Below are positions 17,596 through 25,078 of a DNA stretch of 64,000 nucleotides, one piece after another. Numbering within the stretch: the stretch's first letter is position 1; each line of letters begins with the position of its first letter. This stretch comes from Deltaproteobacteria bacterium (GTDB lineage: Bacteria > Desulfobacterota > Desulfobulbia > Desulfobulbales > Desulfurivibrionaceae). The position numbers and the translations under genes were made by a program. Below the pieces are notes generated by a model, which saw nothing but the letters and a program-made list of their open reading frames with translations, was not told the DNA's origin and ran no database searches. The DNA lies in contig JAJZRF010000005.1 in NCBI GenBank assembly GCA_021847425.1, forward strand, positions 13 to 64,012, written 5' to 3'.

Positions 17596-18258
17596 TTATT
17601 CCCCCTCCTGCGCTCCTTCTCGGAGCAAGCGCATATTTTCTGTCATCGCCTTATCGTAGCAGTGGGGGCAGATACCATGGGTAAAGAGAATGTCGTTATG
17701 CCGGAGCAGATAGACCTCCAGCTCGTGCCAGGCGTTCTTGTCGTCCCGGACCTTCCGGCAGTAAGAGCAGATGGGCAGCAGGCTCTGGAGGTTTTTCAGC
17801 TCCATGGTCCGGGAGCGGACCAGCTCCTCCAGTTCGGCGTTTTTTGCCTCCAAGGCTGAAAACAGGGCCCGGTTCTCCTCCTTGAGCTGATAGCGCTCCA
17901 CCGCATGGATGATGGCGATGCGCAACTCTCCGCTGGCCCAGGGCTTGAGGATGTAACGGTAGACCTGCCCCTGGTTGATGGCGGCCATGATATCCTCCGG
18001 CTCGGAATAGCCGGTGATCATGATCCGTTCCGCATGGGGAGCAATTTCCCTGGCCCGGGCCAGCACCTCGGCCCCGGACAGGCCGGGCATGCGCTGGTCG
18101 GAGAGGATCAGGGCGAGGCCGTCCTCCCGGGCCATGACCTCCAGAGCCTCCTCCCCGGAGGAAGCCAGCAGGATCTCATACTCATCCGCAAAGGTCTGCT
18201 GGAAATTGCTCCGGTTAACCTCCTCGTCGTCGATGAACAGCAGGCGGGGTCGATTCAT
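17596..18258 (-). CDS. Response regulator with C-terminal CxxC...CxxC domain
   Basis: REC domain (IDDE, SDQRMP, YILKPW), coiled coil, then LPICSYCRKVRDD...THGICPHC. Confidence 0.88.
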   Translation of the reverse strand: MNRPRLLFIDDEEVNRSNFQQTFADEYEILLASSGEEALEVMAREDGLALILSDQRMPGLSGAEVLARAREIAPHAERIMITGYSEPEDIMAAINQGQVYRYILKPWASGELRIAIIHAVERYQLKEENRALFSALEAKNAELEELVRSRTMELKNLQSLLPICSYCRKVRDDKNAWHELEVYLLRHNDILFTHGICPHCYDKAMTENMRLLREGAQEGE

Positions 18259-18719
18259 TCCCTGTCTCCTTCAAGCCTTCGCATGCGCTCCGCCATCTGT
18301 TTTCGCCCTTGTTCGACAAAGGCCTTGATCTCCTGCCCCAGGGCATAGGTCCCCACCGCGTTGCCGATGCTGAGCCGCAGCTGTTCCTCCTTCCAGGGCT
18401 TGACGAAATACCGGTAGACTCCCGCCTTGTTGATGGCCTCGATCAGCTCATGAACCTCGGTATAGGCGCTGATGATCATCCGGATGGTCTCCGGGTATGC
18501 TTCCCTGACCCTGGCCAGGAGTTCGATCCCGCTCATCCCCGGCATCCGCTGGTCGGAGACCACCAGGGCCATTTCCCCCTCCCGCCCGAGAAGGGCCAAC
18601 GCCTCATCCCCGGAAGCGGCGGTGAAGATCTCGAAATCGTCACATAGGGTTTCGCGAAAGTTGATCAGATTGATCTCCTCGTCGTCCACATACAACACCC
18701 GTCCTTTCTTTTTGCTCAT
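18255..18719 (-). CDS. Single-domain response regulator
   Basis: YVDDE, SDQRMPGMSG, YFVKPW. Confidence 0.92.
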   Translation of the reverse strand: MSKKKGRVLYVDDEEINLINFRETLCDDFEIFTAASGDEALALLGREGEMALVVSDQRMPGMSGIELLARVREAYPETIRMIISAYTEVHELIEAINKAGVYRYFVKPWKEEQLRLSIGNAVGTYALGQEIKAFVEQGRKQMAERMRRLEGDRE

Positions 18720-20419
18720 CTTTTGTTTTCCTCGTGTGGTGATGCGCTCGGTTCTTGTCCGGCGGGGAGGATCACCTCGAACTCTGCTCCCTGGCCTGGT
18801 TCGCTGCGAACCAAAATTCTGCCCCGGTGTTTGGCGATGATGCCAAAGGAGACGCTCAGTCCCAGTCCCGTGCCCTTGCCGACCTCCTTGGTGGTGAAAA
18901 ACGGATCGAAAATTCGCTCCTGGATCTTTTTGGGAATACCCACCCCCTTATCGGTAAAAATCACATGCACTTCATTCTCAACGCAGAAAGTGCGGATCAG
19001 CAGGGAGCCCTTGTCCGGCTGGGCGTGAACCGCGTTGATAATCAGGTTCATGAATACCTGACAGAGCTGTCCCTGGGAGCCGGACACCGCGGGCAGTTTC
19101 GGGGCAAACTCCTTCATCACCTCCATCCTGTGCCGGTACTCGGGCAGGGCCAGGGCCAGGGTGCTTTCCAGGCACTCATTGATGTCTATGGGCTGGGCGA
19201 TATCCTGGTCGGGCCGGGAAAAATTCTTGAGATCGGTGACGATCTTGCTGGTGCGCCGCGCTCCTTCCCGGACATTGCCCATGAGCAGGTCGATGCTCTG
19301 CATCAGCTCACTCACCCGGTTTGAATCCGGGCAGCTCTGCTCCCCGTGGCCCTCCAGGATCATCCGCAGCTCGTCCAGCCTTTTTTCCAATGGCGGCAGG
19401 GCGCCGGTGATAAAATTGGTGGTGTTGTTGACTTCGTGGGCCACCCCGGCCACCAGTTGGCCCACGGCCCCCATCTTTGCCGATTGCACCAGCTGGGACT
19501 GGGCCTCCTTGAGTTCGTGCATGGTCATGGTGAGTTCGGCGGTGCGAGCGGCCACGGTTTCCTCAAGCCTCTCGTTCATCTGGGCGATGGTGACAAAGGC
19601 TTGGTCGAGCTGACCGATCAGCTGTGTGAGGCTGATTTCAAGCTGGCCGAGTTCATCGCTTGCCTCTTCTTCCGTCTTCCCCAGCCGGGTTTTCAGAGTA
19701 GCGACCAGGGCGCGCAACGGCCTTATCACGTCCCGCGCCAGGATAAGGGACATGATAAAGGAGATGGGTAGGAAGGAGAGAAAAACCAGCACCGCATGGC
19801 GGATGATCCGTTCCATACCCTCTTGGTACTGGGCGCGGCTTAAAATAATCTGCACGTCGCCGAGCCTGGTGGTCGCGCTCTGTTCCATCTTGCCCGTGTC
19901 AAAATACAGGGAGGCCTTGTCTTTGGACTGGCCGACGGTGATGATCTGTTTGCAGAACACGAAGTAGCGATCCTGACGCCAGTTGGGGCTGGGAGCATTT
20001 TCGCGGGCGGTTCGGTGTTCCGCCATGATTTGAGCAAGACGGCCCATTTCCTTCGGCCGGAGGGCATCCTCTCCGGCCTGGGGCACAAGGCGGGAAAAAA
20101 TCAGACCACCGTCCTTGTTGTAGATGAGAACGGCCATGACCCCGGTTTCCCCGAGTACCGCCTCCACGTCTTCGCTGATTCGAGGCATGTTCATGAAAAA
20201 AAGCGGGGTCTCCAGGTTGCGGGCCAGGATCGAGGAGATAAATTTCCCCTTGTGGTAATTTTCATCCAGCAGAGTCTGTTTCTGGCTATGGCCGAAAAGC
20301 AGGATCAGTCCGCCGCCGCAAAGAACCAGAACCCCCAGAAAAGTGAGAAACAGCTTCAAGCGGTAGCCCAGCGGCAGCCAGAATCTTTTCTTGAGCCAGT
20401 GCAGGTCCAGTGGGGTCAT
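18716..20419 (-). CDS. Membrane sensor histidine kinase
   Basis: Two TM helices around a periplasmic domain, HAMP-like linker, H-box AGVAHEVNN, N-box QVFMNLIINA, D.G.GI, FDPFFTTK, GTGLGLS. Confidence 0.95.
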   Translation of the reverse strand: MTPLDLHWLKKRFWLPLGYRLKLFLTFLGVLVLCGGGLILLFGHSQKQTLLDENYHKGKFISSILARNLETPLFFMNMPRISEDVEAVLGETGVMAVLIYNKDGGLIFSRLVPQAGEDALRPKEMGRLAQIMAEHRTARENAPSPNWRQDRYFVFCKQIITVGQSKDKASLYFDTGKMEQSATTRLGDVQIILSRAQYQEGMERIIRHAVLVFLSFLPISFIMSLILARDVIRPLRALVATLKTRLGKTEEEASDELGQLEISLTQLIGQLDQAFVTIAQMNERLEETVAARTAELTMTMHELKEAQSQLVQSAKMGAVGQLVAGVAHEVNNTTNFITGALPPLEKRLDELRMILEGHGEQSCPDSNRVSELMQSIDLLMGNVREGARRTSKIVTDLKNFSRPDQDIAQPIDINECLESTLALALPEYRHRMEVMKEFAPKLPAVSGSQGQLCQVFMNLIINAVHAQPDKGSLLIRTFCVENEVHVIFTDKGVGIPKKIQERIFDPFFTTKEVGKGTGLGLSVSFGIIAKHRGRILVRSEPGQGAEFEVILPAGQEPSASPHEENKR

Positions 20420-21360
20420 CGTCCGGTCTCCGGAGGGTAGGTGGCGTCGATGGCCTCGGGGGCGTAAAAAACGCCCAGCCGGCCAAGCACCTTGGGGTTG
20501 GCCACCACCCTGACCTTGCGGGGCGGGGTCAGAGCGGGAGTATCATTGCCCAGGCCGGCGCGCAGGATATGCGCGCCAAGTTCGGCTGCCTGGGCACCGA
20601 GGTCGGTGGTGTCGAAGGTGACCGCCATGGCCGCGCCCTGCGCCAGGTACTTTTCCGAAAAACTGATGATGGGGACGCGGTTTTTCATGGAAAATTCAAG
20701 AAGGCTGCCCAAGACCTGCGGTGCGGTGAGCTGGGGGTCGGGCAGCAGCCAATAGGCGTCGATCTTGCCGGCCAGCTCCTGGAGCGCCCCCGGCACGCTG
20801 GTCTGGTTGTCGAACTGCTTGAAAAGCAGGGTCTGGATCGAGGCCACCGGCGAGAGCAAAGCCTCCTGCACCCACTGGCCTGACTGGGCCGGATTGTACA
20901 AAACGCCGATGGCATGGACCCTGGGCAGCGCCTTGTTGATCGCGGCCAGCTGACGAGAGGGCTGGATGCGCATCTCGATGCCGGCAAAGTTTCGGGGCAG
21001 GGATGCGGCGGCGGCCGAGGGCGCCAGCAGGTAGACCACCGGCACCTCCCGAAGCTCCTTGATGAAATCCAGGGCCTGATCGCCGATGGCCACCACCAGC
21101 CGTGCGTCTTGTAGCTGTTTTTTAAGGGAAAAAGTATCCGTTGCCTGTTGCTCGGAAAGCAGCACCTGTGTTACGGTATTGCCGCTGATGCTTTTCGGGC
21201 CCGAGGCCGGATGCTGAACGAGCCAATCCCTTTCAAAGCCCAGCCGGGCCTCCTCGTAGGGTTTGAGCGGCGAAGACTGGAGCAGGACGCAGTCCAGCGC
21301 CCAGGCCGTGGAGGCAAAGGCCAGCAGCAACGGCGCGATGAGGAGAAGACACTTTTTCAC
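20416..21360 (-). CDS. Periplasmic ABC-type substrate-binding protein with no cognate permease/ATPase nearby
   Basis: Signal peptide; VAIGD, IGVLYNP, DAYWLLPD, PIISFSEKYL..GA motifs; GTG start. Confidence 0.8.
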   Translation of the reverse strand: MKKCLLLIAPLLLAFASTAWALDCVLLQSSPLKPYEEARLGFERDWLVQHPASGPKSISGNTVTQVLLSEQQATDTFSLKKQLQDARLVVAIGDQALDFIKELREVPVVYLLAPSAAAASLPRNFAGIEMRIQPSRQLAAINKALPRVHAIGVLYNPAQSGQWVQEALLSPVASIQTLLFKQFDNQTSVPGALQELAGKIDAYWLLPDPQLTAPQVLGSLLEFSMKNRVPIISFSEKYLAQGAAMAVTFDTTDLGAQAAELGAHILRAGLGNDTPALTPPRKVRVVANPKVLGRLGVFYAPEAIDATYPPETGR

Positions 21361-21576
21361 CGGCGAATCGACCCTGTTGATTGAAAAAAAGGGAGAACCA
21401 AATCTGACTGCAAATAACCTGCAATAATCCTAGAACCTTGCGCGCCATTGCGCAAGCATGAGATCACTTTCCCCGCGTGCGGGAAAAGTGCCTGCAACCC
21501 TGGGGGGGGGGACAAGACAGGATGCATAACCGTTTGGGATCATGCATAATAATTATTTTTTTCCTGGGAGCCCCCA

Positions 21577-23505
21577 ATGACTTATCCGTATTTTTTCCGT
21601 AATCGCACCTCCGCCGGAACCGCCTTTTTTCTCCTCGCCCTGCTGCCGGCCCTGAGCAACGCTGCCGAAACGGACAAGGCGCAAAACCCCATGACCATGT
21701 ACTTCGATGACTCCCAGATGGTGGAGGTTGCCACCCGCGCCCCCAAACCCATGGCCCAGGTGGCGGAGAATGTCAGCGTAATCACGGCGGAGGAGATCGA
21801 GGGGATGCACGCCCATACCCTTGGCGAGATTCTCGACCGGGTGGCTGGCATGTTCGTTGAGTTTGATGGCCGGGATTTTCTGGGCATGGAAACGATGAGA
21901 ATTTCCGGAACCCGCAGACAGCACGCCCTGTTTTTGCTCGACGGCGTACGTATCAACCAAAATTCAAGCGGGTATGCGCAGTTGTCCTTTGTGCCGCTGG
22001 GCATCATCAAACGCATCGAGATCATCAAGGGGCCTGCCTCATCCTCCTGGGGCTCCGCCCTGGGCGGGGTGGTGAACATCATCACCAAGGATACCGGCAC
22101 AACCCCGGTGCCCAAAGCCACGGCAAGCGCAAGCTATGGCAAGGCAAACAGCCGGGAAGTCTCCCTCGATCTTGCCGGAGGCGGGGAGAAGGTGGGATAT
22201 TACCTGTATGGCGGCAATATTGATTCGGACGGGCTGAAGCTCGACCGTTATGGCGAGCGTAATTCCGCCTATGGCAAGCTTCAGGTCAAGTTGCCGAACA
22301 ACTCCTCCCTCACCGCTGCAGGCGGCTACAGCGATCCGAACTACAAATTACTTGATTGGGGCAATGCCTGGGGCATATCGGACCTGAATGTTTACGATGA
22401 TGTCGGTACGCACAACTTCTGGGGCACGGTATACTATGATGCGGAACTCGCCCAAAAGCTCAACCTGCATCTGGCCATTCAACGCTACAAAAACGAATTC
22501 ATGGACGATTTTCGTTCCCTGGGCACCGGCAATGGCGGACCCAATGGAGATTTCATCTACCGCCAAAACTGGGACGATGAGGTCAACAGTTTTTCCAGCA
22601 ACCTCAATTGGGCTGGCGAAAACCTTGCCTCAAACATCGGCTTTGAATCAAGCCGCAGCAAGATGGTCTATTCCAGCGCCACGGGCGTTCTTTTTGGCGG
22701 CCCATCTTCCTCAACCGATGATCCGGCGCAGGAGGAACGCCGGGGGCTCTATGCCAACACCACTTACACTCAGGGCAAGTTTTCCCTCACCCCCGGGATC
22801 AGGTATGACTATAATTCCAACTCCCAGGCATTTACCAGCCCCTCCCTTGGCGCGACCTACCAGCTTGCCAACGACACCCTGCTCCGCGCCTCTGCAGCCC
22901 GCGGCTTTTCCGCCCCCTACCTTTCAGCAATACAAAATTCGCCGGGGCTGAAACCGGAAACCATCACAGCTTACCAGGCAGGGATCGAAACCCACCGGGT
23001 GCCGGATCTCCTGCTCAAGCTCACTGTCTTCCAGTACAATATTTCCGATGCCTGGAATATGTCCTCTGTCCCTTGGGTCAATGCCGGGCACATCCGCTTG
23101 CACGGCGTGGAGTTCGAGGCGACCACCAACGAATACCACGGCCTTACCCTCACCGCCAACTTCACCCTTGCCTCGGAAAACAGCATGGGCGATGGGGATA
23201 CCGATCGAAAAAACGATGCGACCTATACCGCCAACCTCATTGCGGACTACAGACTCCGGGAATATGGGCTTCGCGCCGAACTGGCCGGCCATTATTACTG
23301 GATGAACGGGGATCTCATAAATGATAACCCGATCTGTAATACGTTTCTCTGGGATGCGTTGCTCAGCAAAGAGCTTGCCCTGCCTTTGTTGCAAACCGAA
23401 ATTTTTCTCAAAGCCCATAATATCTTTAACGGCAGCCAGTACTGGGACTTCGCATATCCCAACCCGGACCGCTGGGTGGAAGCCGGTGTAGTCTTTAAAT
23501 TTTAA
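21577..23505 (+). CDS. TonB-dependent outer-membrane receptor
   Basis: Signal peptide; plug (VATRAPK...VSVITAEEI, LLDGV, IKRIEIIKGPASSSWGSALGGVVNIITK); beta-barrel; C-terminal aromatic (VVFKF). Confidence 0.93.
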   Translation: MTYPYFFRNRTSAGTAFFLLALLPALSNAAETDKAQNPMTMYFDDSQMVEVATRAPKPMAQVAENVSVITAEEIEGMHAHTLGEILDRVAGMFVEFDGRDFLGMETMRISGTRRQHALFLLDGVRINQNSSGYAQLSFVPLGIIKRIEIIKGPASSSWGSALGGVVNIITKDTGTTPVPKATASASYGKANSREVSLDLAGGGEKVGYYLYGGNIDSDGLKLDRYGERNSAYGKLQVKLPNNSSLTAAGGYSDPNYKLLDWGNAWGISDLNVYDDVGTHNFWGTVYYDAELAQKLNLHLAIQRYKNEFMDDFRSLGTGNGGPNGDFIYRQNWDDEVNSFSSNLNWAGENLASNIGFESSRSKMVYSSATGVLFGGPSSSTDDPAQEERRGLYANTTYTQGKFSLTPGIRYDYNSNSQAFTSPSLGATYQLANDTLLRASAARGFSAPYLSAIQNSPGLKPETITAYQAGIETHRVPDLLLKLTVFQYNISDAWNMSSVPWVNAGHIRLHGVEFEATTNEYHGLTLTANFTLASENSMGDGDTDRKNDATYTANLIADYRLREYGLRAELAGHYYWMNGDLINDNPICNTFLWDALLSKELALPLLQTEIFLKAHNIFNGSQYWDFAYPNPDRWVEAGVVFKF

Positions 23506-23583
23506 TTATCCGTTGTGGAAACCGTGATATGATTGTTTGGTCGAGGGATTTTTTTTAAACAACCCATTACCACAGGAGGAAAC

Positions 23584-23679
23584 ATGAAAACGATGACTAT
23601 TCTTACCCAGGGAAAAACCGTCAAGACCGTGGCTGCAACAAGTGGATGCTGTGCAGGTGTACCTTCAGCAGTAAAATGA
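23584..23679 (+). CDS. 31-aa putative RiPP precursor peptide (geopeptide-like), MKTMTILTQGKTVKTVAATSGCCAGVPSAVK
   Basis: Below the ORF-track cutoff. Strong RBS AGGAGGA 3 nt before the ATG; Cys-Cys motif; sits directly upstream of a radical SAM/SPASM gene. Confidence 0.85.
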   Translation: MKTMTILTQGKTVKTVAATSGCCAGVPSAVK

Positions 23680-23693
23680 TCTCCAAAGTTTTA

Positions 23694-23738
23694 GAGAACA
23701 AAAAAAGGAGAGCTATCGGCTCTCCTTTTTTTGTTCTC
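23694..23738 (+). terminator. Perfect 20-bp stem-loop between precursor and maturase genes
   Basis: GAGAACAAAAAAAGGAGAGC-tatcg-GCTCTCCTTTTTTTGTTCTC. Confidence 0.8.
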
Positions 23739-23761
23739 GCGGCAAACCAGAGGGCCCCCCT

Positions 23762-25078
23762 ATGCAGCTTACCCCATACCATGTTGTCTGTCCCTATCCT
23801 GACGATCCTGAGCAGCTCCTTCTCTTTGCCACCAAAACCGGCGCCCTGGTTGTCCTTCCGGTAGAGGTTTTTGCCGGCCTGCGAGAGGGGCTTGTCGCAA
23901 AGGGCGCTCTTGAGCCGCTCACCGAAATGGGATTTCTTGTTTCCGACCCCGATCAGGAACGCCGGGCGGTGTACGGATATCTGGCGGAAGTCAACAGAGT
24001 CAATCCCAATCTGACCGTGGCCCTCATCCTGGGGATGGAGTGCAACTTCGCCTGCAGGTACTGCTTCCAAGGCGGTCAGAAAGACAGGGCGGCCATGAGC
24101 GATGCCACGGCGGACCGGCTCGTTGCCTTTATCCGCGAATGTTTCAGGCCGGGCAAGAAAAAGCTCCTGCTTCAAATTTACGGGGGCGAGCCGCTGCTCT
24201 ACACCAAACGGATCATCTCCTTGGCTCGGCAGCTTAAACCATTTGTAGAAGGGCAGGGGGCAGAACTTGTCATAGATATTGTTTCCAACGGCTCGCTCAT
24301 CACTCCCCAGGTGGTGGATGAATTGAACCAGTGGGGGCTTGACGGGATCAAGATTACCATCGACGGCCCACCGGAAAACCACAACTATTTCCGGCCATTC
24401 AAGTCCGGGAAACCGAGTTTTGAAATAATTGTCCGCAATCTGAACGCGGTTCGCGGCAAGACCAAGATCCGCCTGGGCGGCAACTATACCATGGCGAACT
24501 ACCAAAGTTTCCCCCCCGTTCTCGACCTTCTGGCCGCGCAGGGACTCACCCCGGACACGGTGGAACTGGTCAACTTCAACATCGTCATGCAGGTGCGGGA
24601 GACAGCTGCCGGCAATATCTATCGCGGCGGCTGTTGCACCGTCAACGAGCCATGGCTGCAAGATGCCGCCCTCCATGTCCGGGAAGAGGTGTTCAAGCGG
24701 GGCTATATGATTGCGGAGCTCGGCCCGCAGCCCTGTGCCGTTGAGGTGGAGGACGCCTTTACCGTGCATTACGATGGCAGTTTGTACAAGTGCGTGATCT
24801 GGGCAGGGCAGAAACAGTTCAGAATCGGCGACATCTGGCAGGGGATCGACGAACAGTATAAAGAAATCCATCATCTTGGCCACTGGCAGAGGGAAGAAAA
24901 ATGCCGGAAATGCGTTTACCTGCCCCTCTGCTTCGGCGGCTGTCGCTCCATGGCCTATCAGCGCGACGGGCACATGGCGAATGTGGACTGCAAGAAGGAA
25001 TTTCTGGATGCAACCCTGGAAAAAATGCTGGCCCAGGATCTGCAATACCGTTACGGGGCAGCGGCGGAAAAATCGTGA
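23762..25078 (+). CDS. Radical SAM/SPASM peptide maturase (geopeptide maturase-like)
   Basis: CNFACRYC SAM cluster motif, YGGEPLL, TIDGP; SPASM C...DGSLYKC...IGDI...CRKCVYLPLCFGGCR...C; N-terminal extension typical of peptide maturases. Confidence 0.9.
   Translation: MQLTPYHVVCPYPDDPEQLLLFATKTGALVVLPVEVFAGLREGLVAKGALEPLTEMGFLVSDPDQERRAVYGYLAEVNRVNPNLTVALILGMECNFACRYCFQGGQKDRAAMSDATADRLVAFIRECFRPGKKKLLLQIYGGEPLLYTKRIISLARQLKPFVEGQGAELVIDIVSNGSLITPQVVDELNQWGLDGIKITIDGPPENHNYFRPFKSGKPSFEIIVRNLNAVRGKTKIRLGGNYTMANYQSFPPVLDLLAAQGLTPDTVELVNFNIVMQVRETAAGNIYRGGCCTVNEPWLQDAALHVREEVFKRGYMIAELGPQPCAVEVEDAFTVHYDGSLYKCVIWAGQKQFRIGDIWQGIDEQYKEIHHLGHWQREEKCRKCVYLPLCFGGCRSMAYQRDGHMANVDCKKEFLDATLEKMLAQDLQYRYGAAAEKS

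What the first reader, a model, noticed from the sequence alone, without database searches (positions are those of the whole stretch)
17596..25078. Candidate RiPP-based signalling circuit: peptide, rSAM maturase, TonB receptor, orphan binding protein, kinase and two response regulators
Seen: a self-contained block between lpxB and trmL. Rightward are the TonB-dependent receptor, a 31-aa CC peptide, a 20-bp hairpin and a radical SAM/SPASM gene. Leftward, coupled by 4-nt overlaps, are a periplasmic binding protein, a sensor kinase and two REC proteins. There is no ABC permease/ATPase, protease, exporter or immunity gene. Established: rSAM/SPASM enzymes cross-link short peptides, and orphan binding proteins can present ligands to kinases. 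Inference: the modified peptide, or a metal-peptide complex, crosses the outer membrane via the receptor, binds the periplasmic protein and sets kinase activity. That would be a peptide-sensing or quorum-like loop in a Gram-negative anaerobe. I know of no characterised function for geopeptide-type RiPPs.
Basis: partly seen in the sequence, partly recalled or inferred. Interest (0 to 1): 0.85.

Follow-up and report, generated by a model that had tools for sequence, protein, structure and literature searches.

The report
Peptide receptor tail-swap kinase relay
A tiny two-cysteine peptide gene, its modifying enzyme and an outer-membrane receptor sit back-to-back with a periplasmic protein and a sensor kinase; the receptor likely recognises the peptide, and its short inner tail is predicted to plug into the periplasmic protein and would pull it off a look-alike loop on the kinase, a relay I found in no paper searched.

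Summary
Observation confirmed. The maturase passes NCBIfam TIGR04280; the 31-aa CC peptide misses TIGR04229 but belongs to a wider family whose only invariant residues are the two cysteines. The genes are kept together across the phylum sample, but as two separately evolving parts: receptor + peptide + maturase swap as a cassette, while binding protein (SBP) + kinase stay with the host. The receptor's N-terminal tail (M-Y-F-D) and a flexible loop of the kinase sensor (L-Y-F-D) share a motif. At order level the tail tracks the SBP, not the cassette, and a complex prediction puts the tail in the SBP cleft (0.84, best control 0.00). Best reading (0.55): the peptide is read at the receptor and the SBP switches partner from kinase loop to receptor tail. 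Distant receptor-SBP-kinase triads with similar tails occur without any maturase, so the relay is generic. Peptide-receptor binding, SBP-loop binding, export and output are untested. The scan noted this module before on other DNA (29 notes; one had the tail idea). No paper on geopeptides was found.

The parts
17596..18258 (-). Receiver-domain protein with a C-terminal Cys/His-rich tail; no recognised DNA-binding domain
   Evidence: PF00072 only; sequence
18255..18719 (-). Single-domain response regulator
   Evidence: PF00072 only
18716..20419 (-). Two-TM sensor histidine kinase; periplasmic single-Cache-like domain; H328, N, G boxes intact
   Evidence: relatives hit sCache_4
19898..19912 (-). 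Kinase sensor loop motif S170-L-Y-F-D174, look-alike of the receptor tail; in a low-confidence hairpin loop
20416..21360 (-). Transporter-less periplasmic binding-protein-fold protein (PF04392), likely relay adaptor
   Evidence: only PF04392 gene in the genome
21437..21456 (+). Palindrome CTTGCGC-N6-GCGCAAG in the divergent promoter region, conserved in the genus; likely operator
21577..23505 (+). TonB-dependent receptor (plug + barrel, no STN domain); body co-varies with peptide and maturase
21688..21738 (+). Receptor N-terminal tail (M41-Y42-F43-D44) and TonB-box-like stretch; predicted to dock in the SBP cleft
23584..23679 (+). 31-aa geopeptide-type precursor, leader plus Cys-Cys core
   Evidence: no TIGR04229 hit
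23694..23738 (+). Terminator-like hairpin between peptide and maturase genes
23762..25078 (+). Geopeptide radical SAM/SPASM maturase
   Evidence: TIGR04280 454 bits, cut-off 400; 3 SAM-cluster and 7 SPASM-region Cys invariant in 42 of 42

Best explanation
The maturase likely cross-links the two-cysteine peptide, the matured peptide is likely recognised outside the cell by its co-inherited TonB-dependent receptor, and the receptor's short periplasmic tail is predicted to bind the cleft of the binding protein, which would pull it off a look-alike loop on the kinase and change kinase activity. SHOWN by sequence: gene linkage; two separately evolving parts; a shared aromatic-acidic motif in tail and loop. 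PREDICTED by a model: tail in the SBP cleft. INFERRED: thioether chemistry (by analogy with radical SAM/SPASM peptide maturases); peptide-receptor binding (from co-variation); SBP-loop binding (from motif likeness only); direction of the switch (ligand frees the tail and TonB-box region, recalled behaviour of TonB receptors). The design lets a lineage change peptide dialect by swapping one cassette while keeping the same SBP and kinase. Export route and output are unknown.
For: Split evolution. L032 vs L036: SBP 91%, kinase sensor 88%, but maturase 50%, receptor 42%. The window vs four loci outside its genus set: maturase 67-68%, receptor 60-63%, SBP 31-32%. In 27-taxon trees, maturase and receptor share 7 supported splits; each shares 1 with the SBP. 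Motif in 46 of 55 receptor tails and 30 of 36 kinase loops; background 2 of 220, 11 of 114 and 3 of 373 windows. A matrix built from tails picks the loop as best periplasmic site in 29 of 36 kinases. Five rows of one clade change tail, loop and SBP K216/Y89 (mature numbering) together. In the 26 order-level units the tail tracks the SBP (partial rho 0.49, vs 0.07 for the maturase), while from residue 76 on the receptor tracks the maturase (0.40-0.79). Tail-loop similarity in 59 loci: cognate 16.3, non-cognate 13.7, other windows 10.9, shuffled 11.5. Complex model: score 0.84, best of 3 controls 0.00; the mark was reached by 116 of 157 solved and 2 of 215 mismatched pairs (rough here, own alignments); runs agree in at least 78% of contacts, partner pLDDT at least 59; M-Y-F touches P13, P186, F213, S214, K216. 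The loop has low confidence when the sensor is folded alone, pLDDT 55-57.
Against: No experiment. SBP-loop and peptide-receptor binding were not modelled. Over all 42 units the tail is not separable from the cassette (partial rho 0.19 vs 0.56). In the 8 units where the receptor is co-transcribed with the SBP, receptor-maturase correlation (0.59) is no higher than maturase-SBP (0.69), so part of the coupling may be plain operon co-transfer, and the tail pattern could reflect a recombination boundary. The joint change is one clade, so one event; kin are not independent in any of these statistics. The SBP's nearest solved relatives bind aromatic amino acids, so the model may dock Tyr-Phe partly by likeness. 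No exporter or leader protease is conserved. No sigma-54 site was found upstream of the window's receptor, so feedback is not shown.
Confidence: 0.55

Rival explanations
1. Metallophore: the matured peptide chelates a metal, the receptor imports the complex as MbnT does for methanobactin, and the relay reports receptor occupancy. The relay would be the same as in the best explanation; the purpose would be nutrition rather than cell-cell signalling.
For: Invariant Cys-Cys. A RiPP precursor beside a TonB receptor whose sequence varies with the product is described for methanobactin (PMC3621798, passages). His80 and His116 are kept in 31 and 34 of 42 receptors.
Against: No conserved inner-membrane importer or exporter. 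No conserved Fur-like box upstream: 9-15 of 19 matches in 45 regions against a recalled consensus. If the cysteines become thioethers they would be poor ligands (inference). The genome's one TonB lies beside the other receptor.
Confidence: 0.18
2. One reading: the peptide is imported through the receptor, bound in the SBP cleft and presented to the kinase, as LuxP presents AI-2 to LuxQ.
For: Type I binding-protein fold, with LuxP and TorT among weaker fold matches. A sister architecture (L086, L089) pairs a related CC peptide with a family-5 peptide-binding protein, a dCache kinase and a receptor lacking the tail motif, where this model is plausible. The SBP could see only the invariant CC core.
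Against: SBP does not follow peptide class in either direction. The cleft is predicted to hold the receptor tail. Maturase-less triads keep the same kind of SBP, tail and loop.
Confidence: 0.12
3. The receptor senses an unrelated outside ligand or exports the peptide; peptide and maturase are an output or passenger and co-vary with the receptor only because they are one operon.
For: Triads exist without the peptide. An export role would explain the missing exporter. Weak receptor-maturase coupling where they are divergently transcribed. One locus has this receptor type with no maturase in the stretch fetched (L201).
Against: This receptor type and the maturase co-occur in 29 of the 33 genomes that have either, in several gene orders. 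Tandem units duplicate receptor, peptide and maturase together (L011, L013, L016, L022, L066). A cytoplasmic peptide would still need to cross the inner membrane.
Confidence: 0.1
4. Narrow-range antibacterial RiPP (fratricide-like, as proposed for streptosactin) that enters through the cognate receptor, the kinase giving warning or immunity.
For: Diversified peptide-receptor pairs; patchy presence in the genus, 14 of 24 genomes. Streptosactin precedent (PMC9389541, passages).
Against: No immunity gene or conserved exporter; the producer would encode the entry route for its own toxin.
Confidence: 0.05

Closest known systems
NCBIfam geopeptide system (TIGR04229 precursor + TIGR04280 maturase)
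   Same: Maturase passes TIGR04280; short CC precursor directly upstream.
   Different: This precursor scores no TIGR04229 hit. The receptor, SBP and kinase link and any function were not found in print.
YfiBNR of Pseudomonas aeruginosa
   Same: Works like it: an outer-membrane protein sequesters a periplasmic regulator from an inner-membrane sensor, using aromatic anchors on an N-terminal loop and an interface overlapping the sensor's (PMC4655355 abstract; PMC4887326 passages).
   Different: TonB receptor instead of a lipoprotein; PF04392 protein instead of YfiR; histidine kinase instead of diguanylate cyclase; the same short motif appears on both partners.
TonB-dependent cell-surface signalling (FecARI, MbnTRI)
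   Same: A ligand at a TonB receptor is signalled inward through the receptor's N-terminus (PMC3621798 passages).
   Different: No folded N-terminal extension (STN), anti-sigma or ECF sigma; a tail of about 15 residues, an SBP adaptor and a two-component kinase instead.
LuxPQ / TorTS (binding protein presents ligand to a kinase)
   Same: Transporter-less type I binding protein encoded against a Cache-type kinase.
   Different: Here the SBP does not track the presumed ligand and its cleft is predicted to bind a protein tail.
Methanobactin operons
   Same: RiPP precursor with cysteines, product-matched TonB receptor, sometimes a periplasmic binding protein.
   Different: Radical SAM/SPASM enzyme instead of MbnBC; no MATE exporter; kinase output.

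Membership tests
Geopeptide system | Maturase over the TIGR04280 cut-off | tested here: met
   454 vs 400 bits, full length
Geopeptide system | Precursor over the TIGR04229 cut-off | tested here: not met
   No hit at E<=10. 5 of 18 related peptides hit weakly, 11-20 bits vs cut-off 30; the model is narrow, so this is a geopeptide-type precursor, not a TIGR04229 member
Geopeptide system | Short CC precursor next to the maturase | tested here: met
Radical SAM/SPASM peptide maturase | CX3CX2C plus SPASM cysteines | tested here: met
   C94/98/101 and C325, 344, 381, 384, 390, 394, 410 invariant in 42 of 42; TIGR04085 53.7 vs 27 bits
Sacti/ranthipeptide | Cys thioether cross-links in the product | not testable with these tools
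   Nearest other models are CefB, TIGR04463 and PapB, all below cut-off
TonB-dependent cell-surface signalling (FecARI type) | STN/N-terminal extension domain, anti-sigma and ECF sigma | tested here: not met
   Receptor has plug and barrel only; no sigma or anti-sigma gene in the block
YfiBNR | YfiR-family periplasmic protein, OmpA-type lipoprotein, GGDEF sensor | tested here: not met
   PF04392, TonB receptor and kinase instead; YfiR not among the listed fold matches
YfiBNR | Mutually exclusive binding of the periplasmic protein to outer- and inner-membrane partners | tested here: inconclusive
   Tail binding predicted; loop binding inferred from the motif only
LuxPQ-type ligand presentation | Binding protein is specific for the signal | tested here: inconclusive
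   SBP does not co-vary with peptide class; binding itself untested
Quorum-sensing circuit | Signal is exported and induces its own synthesis | not testable with these tools
   No conserved exporter; no expression data available

The most novel reading that the evidence does not exclude
A general, undescribed class of cell-surface signalling: TonB receptors act as swappable ligand sensors whose short aromatic tail mimics a loop on a kinase and switches a repurposed amino-acid-binding protein between the two. In this branch the ligand is a strain-specific radical-SAM peptide. Because most lineages carry no exporter or protease for it, it may be released by lysis and serve as a kin-specific alarm or pheromone in anaerobic Gram-negative bacteria.
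Probability: 0.3. Interest if true: 0.92.

Novelty: new variant of a known kind. Interest (0 to 1): 0.78.

Why it matters
It gives the first concrete, cheaply testable mechanism for the geopeptide families, for which I found no function in print. It predicts a new way to signal across the outer membrane: a linear-motif partner switch from a TonB receptor to a two-component kinase. The same triad occurs widely without the peptide, so it would explain many orphan receptor-SBP-kinase clusters. Because specificity would sit in the receptor body alone, it would explain the cassette swapping seen between genera and offer a modular sensor design. Radical-SAM peptide signals are best known from Gram-positive bacteria (recalled); this would extend them to sulfur- and metal-cycling anaerobes.

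Tried and rejected
TIGR04229 membership: no hit. Fur box and sigma-54 promoter upstream of the receptor, against recalled consensus patterns: no conserved Fur match in 45 regions; sigma-54 pattern in 1 of 45, not the window. The sigma-70 and terminator scan was at chance level, 3 vs 3.1 and 7 vs 10.5, and did not list the long hairpin. Palindrome as a genome-wide regulon site: one perfect site, 20 others with 1-2 mismatches, not shown above chance. Natural SBP-kinase fusions, sought to fold the loop contact in one chain: none among 7991 candidates, weak evidence. Dedicated exporter or protease: no C39 peptidase in the genome, 81% complete; none common to the 191 neighbour ORFs scanned from 33 loci; a short MFS gene lies beside the maturase region in 10 loci of another lineage, with no close match in this genome. 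Lipoprotein signal in the precursor: rejected by eye, no hydrophobic core. Literature searches that found nothing on this module. The library lacks most subscription papers, including the original TIGRFAM descriptions as far as these searches show; no supplements were read.
Full report
OBSERVATION. The block is as described. The peptide starts at 23584. Family scans give two receiver proteins, a kinase, a PF04392 protein, a plug-and-barrel TonB receptor and a maturase that passes TIGR04280 at 454 vs 400 bits. The peptide does not hit TIGR04229. The hairpin is real (z -5.2) and looks like an intrinsic terminator that would give more peptide than enzyme (inference); 34 of 43 related peptide genes have a stem of 9 bp or more behind them. 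Record titles of the nearest maturase relatives are mostly Desulfurivibrionaceae and Desulfobulbia, so the host is likely of that group. The genome (81% complete) holds one such maturase, one PF04392 gene, two TonB receptors, one TonB and one ExbD.

LINKAGE. TIGR04280 is over cut-off in 29 of 61 relatives and 22 of 301 genomes of a phylum sample. After dropping three duplicate loci, 64 maturase units were scored: 55 have an intact receptor within 2.6 kb, 48 an SBP within 7 kb and 46 the sensor within 9 kb. Of the 9 without an intact receptor, 7 lie at contig ends, 1 has a split receptor and 1 is a second maturase in a tandem. Gene order varies across the phylum, as does the output: simple or hybrid kinases, and sigma-54, LuxR-type or receiver-only regulators. 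In 36 aligned precursors only C22 and C23 are invariant. In the converse test, 19 of 26 phylum SBP matches of 270 bits or more lie beside the maturase; 5 are on short contigs or at contig ends and 2 are clear exceptions. That profile was built from these loci, so the count is partly circular. Among 33 lower-scoring SBP loci fetched, 22 have a TonB receptor and none shows the maturase; L044-L048 and L051 are further maturase-less triads. So the triad is a general module, and one receptor type has been tied to the peptide.

TWO EVOLVING PARTS. Within the genus set the SBP is 71-91% identical throughout, while receptors fall into classes as far apart as 36-44% and maturases 46-53%. Across genera the window's cassette is 60-68% like those of L011, L013, L016 and L020, whose SBPs are 31-32% identical to the window's. 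FastTree trees of 27 units: maturase and receptor share 7 supported splits (4 of 12 conflict); maturase and SBP share 1 (10 conflict); receptor and SBP share 1 (15 conflict). An SBP that read the variable peptide should not behave this way. Against over-reading: in 8 units where the receptor is co-transcribed with the SBP, the three correlations are alike (0.55-0.69), so operon co-transfer explains some of the pattern.

SHARED MOTIF. The receptor's mature N-terminus, just before the TonB-box-like stretch, carries L/M-Y/F-F-acidic, and so does a loop between two strands of the kinase sensor. Counts: 46 of 55 tails and 30 of 36 loops; a matrix from tails picks that loop in 29 of 36 sensor domains and 26 of 36 whole kinases. 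In one clade (L063, L065, both L066 units, L070; calling it Geobacter-like is my inference from high TIGR04280 scores) tail and loop are both altered and SBP K216, Y89 and Q116 change too. L073, with the same gene order, keeps both motifs. Maturase-less triads show the same likeness, for example loops such as D-M-S-L-F-F-E. Over 59 loci, cognate tail-loop scores exceed non-cognate, other windows and shuffles (16.3, 13.7, 10.9, 11.5; permutation p 0.0002, overstated because kin are not independent). At order level the tail tracks the SBP and the receptor body tracks the maturase; over all 42 units this separation is lost.

MODELS. The SBP folds with pLDDT 91.5 and is nearest to 3LKV, CD0873 and the Trp-bound 3LFT. 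The Asn after the conserved Asp in those three is not kept here; its ligand-binding role is recalled. The sensor is a single Cache/PAS-like domain, best match the LapD-type 4U64 at E 9e-4, and the motif loop is low-confidence. The complex job SBP + 34-residue tail scored 0.84, with best of 3 controls 0.00. The mark was reached by 116 of 157 solved and 2 of 215 mismatched pairs, rough here because my own alignments were used; runs agree in at least 78% of contacts, partner pLDDT at least 59. M12-Y13-F14 of the tail touch P13, P186, F213, S214 and K216, and tail residues 18-25 also touch. K216 had been singled out beforehand by the clade comparison. The model supports binding and does not show it; likeness to aromatic-amino-acid binders may help the pass.

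MECHANISM. I commit to a partner switch (0.55): peptide binds the receptor outside, the tail becomes available, it captures the SBP from the kinase loop, and phosphate flow to the two receiver proteins changes. The reverse direction (TonB displaces the SBP from the tail) is not excluded. Export is unexplained: no C39 peptidase in this genome, no exporter common to 191 neighbour ORFs from 33 loci, and a short MFS gene only in another lineage. Release by lysis is therefore open. A sister architecture (L086, L089; similar order in L088, L091 without a peptide found) uses a family-5 binding protein and a dCache kinase with a related peptide, which independently ties this peptide family to sensing.

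KNOWN SYSTEMS AND PRINT. It works like YfiBNR (PMC4655355: abstract and opening text; PMC4887326: passages) and like TonB cell-surface signalling (PMC3621798: passages), but fails the membership features of both. PMC9389541 (passages) gave the range of radical-SAM RiPP chemistry. 'Geopeptide', TIGR04280 and TIGR04229 occur in no paper of the library (one listing mentions TIGR04081 only, not opened). Searches listed nothing on such a triad (listings only, apart from the papers named above). Earlier scan notes describe the same module in at least 26 genomes. One proposes receptor recognition and a tail relay; I had recorded my reading before opening them. A search for the tail-loop motif among notes found none.

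VERDICT. Real, conserved and not described in the papers searched. New variant of a known kind, interest 0.78.

Noticed in passing
L075:5019-7100, L076:12120-14300: Two maturases carry a 260-300 aa C-terminal extension, 49% identical to each other, with no Pfam hit and no match in the other loci fetched.
   Followed up: partly
L071:7028-7585, L075:7199-7759, L084, L138, L139, L143, L148, L152, L156, L180: A short (about 185 aa, half-size) MFS gene lies beside the maturase region in one lineage; candidate exporter there.
   Followed up: partly
L086:8157-15009, L089:118-6589, L088, L091: Sister architecture: receptor without the tail motif, family-5 binding protein, sub-cut-off maturase and dCache kinase; a related CC peptide in L086 and L089.
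   Followed up: partly
L044-L048, L188-L221: Receptor-SBP-kinase triads without a maturase, with matching tail and loop motifs; some genomes hold several SBP copies (7 matches in G110). Ligands unknown.
   Followed up: partly
L027:12260-13528: An MFS gene on the opposite strand separates two peptide-maturase pairs of different class behind a single receptor.
   Followed up: no
L029:7309-11525; L011, L013, L016, L022, L066: Tandem receptors or whole tandem cassettes of different class, which would let a cell read two peptide dialects.
   Followed up: partly
window 21437-21456: Genus-conserved palindrome in the divergent promoter region, with changes on both arms in L042; regulator unknown.
   Followed up: partly
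window 17596-17790: The C-terminus of the larger receiver protein has CxxC and HGICPxC motifs with no Pfam hit; possibly a zinc-binding output domain (inference).
   Followed up: no
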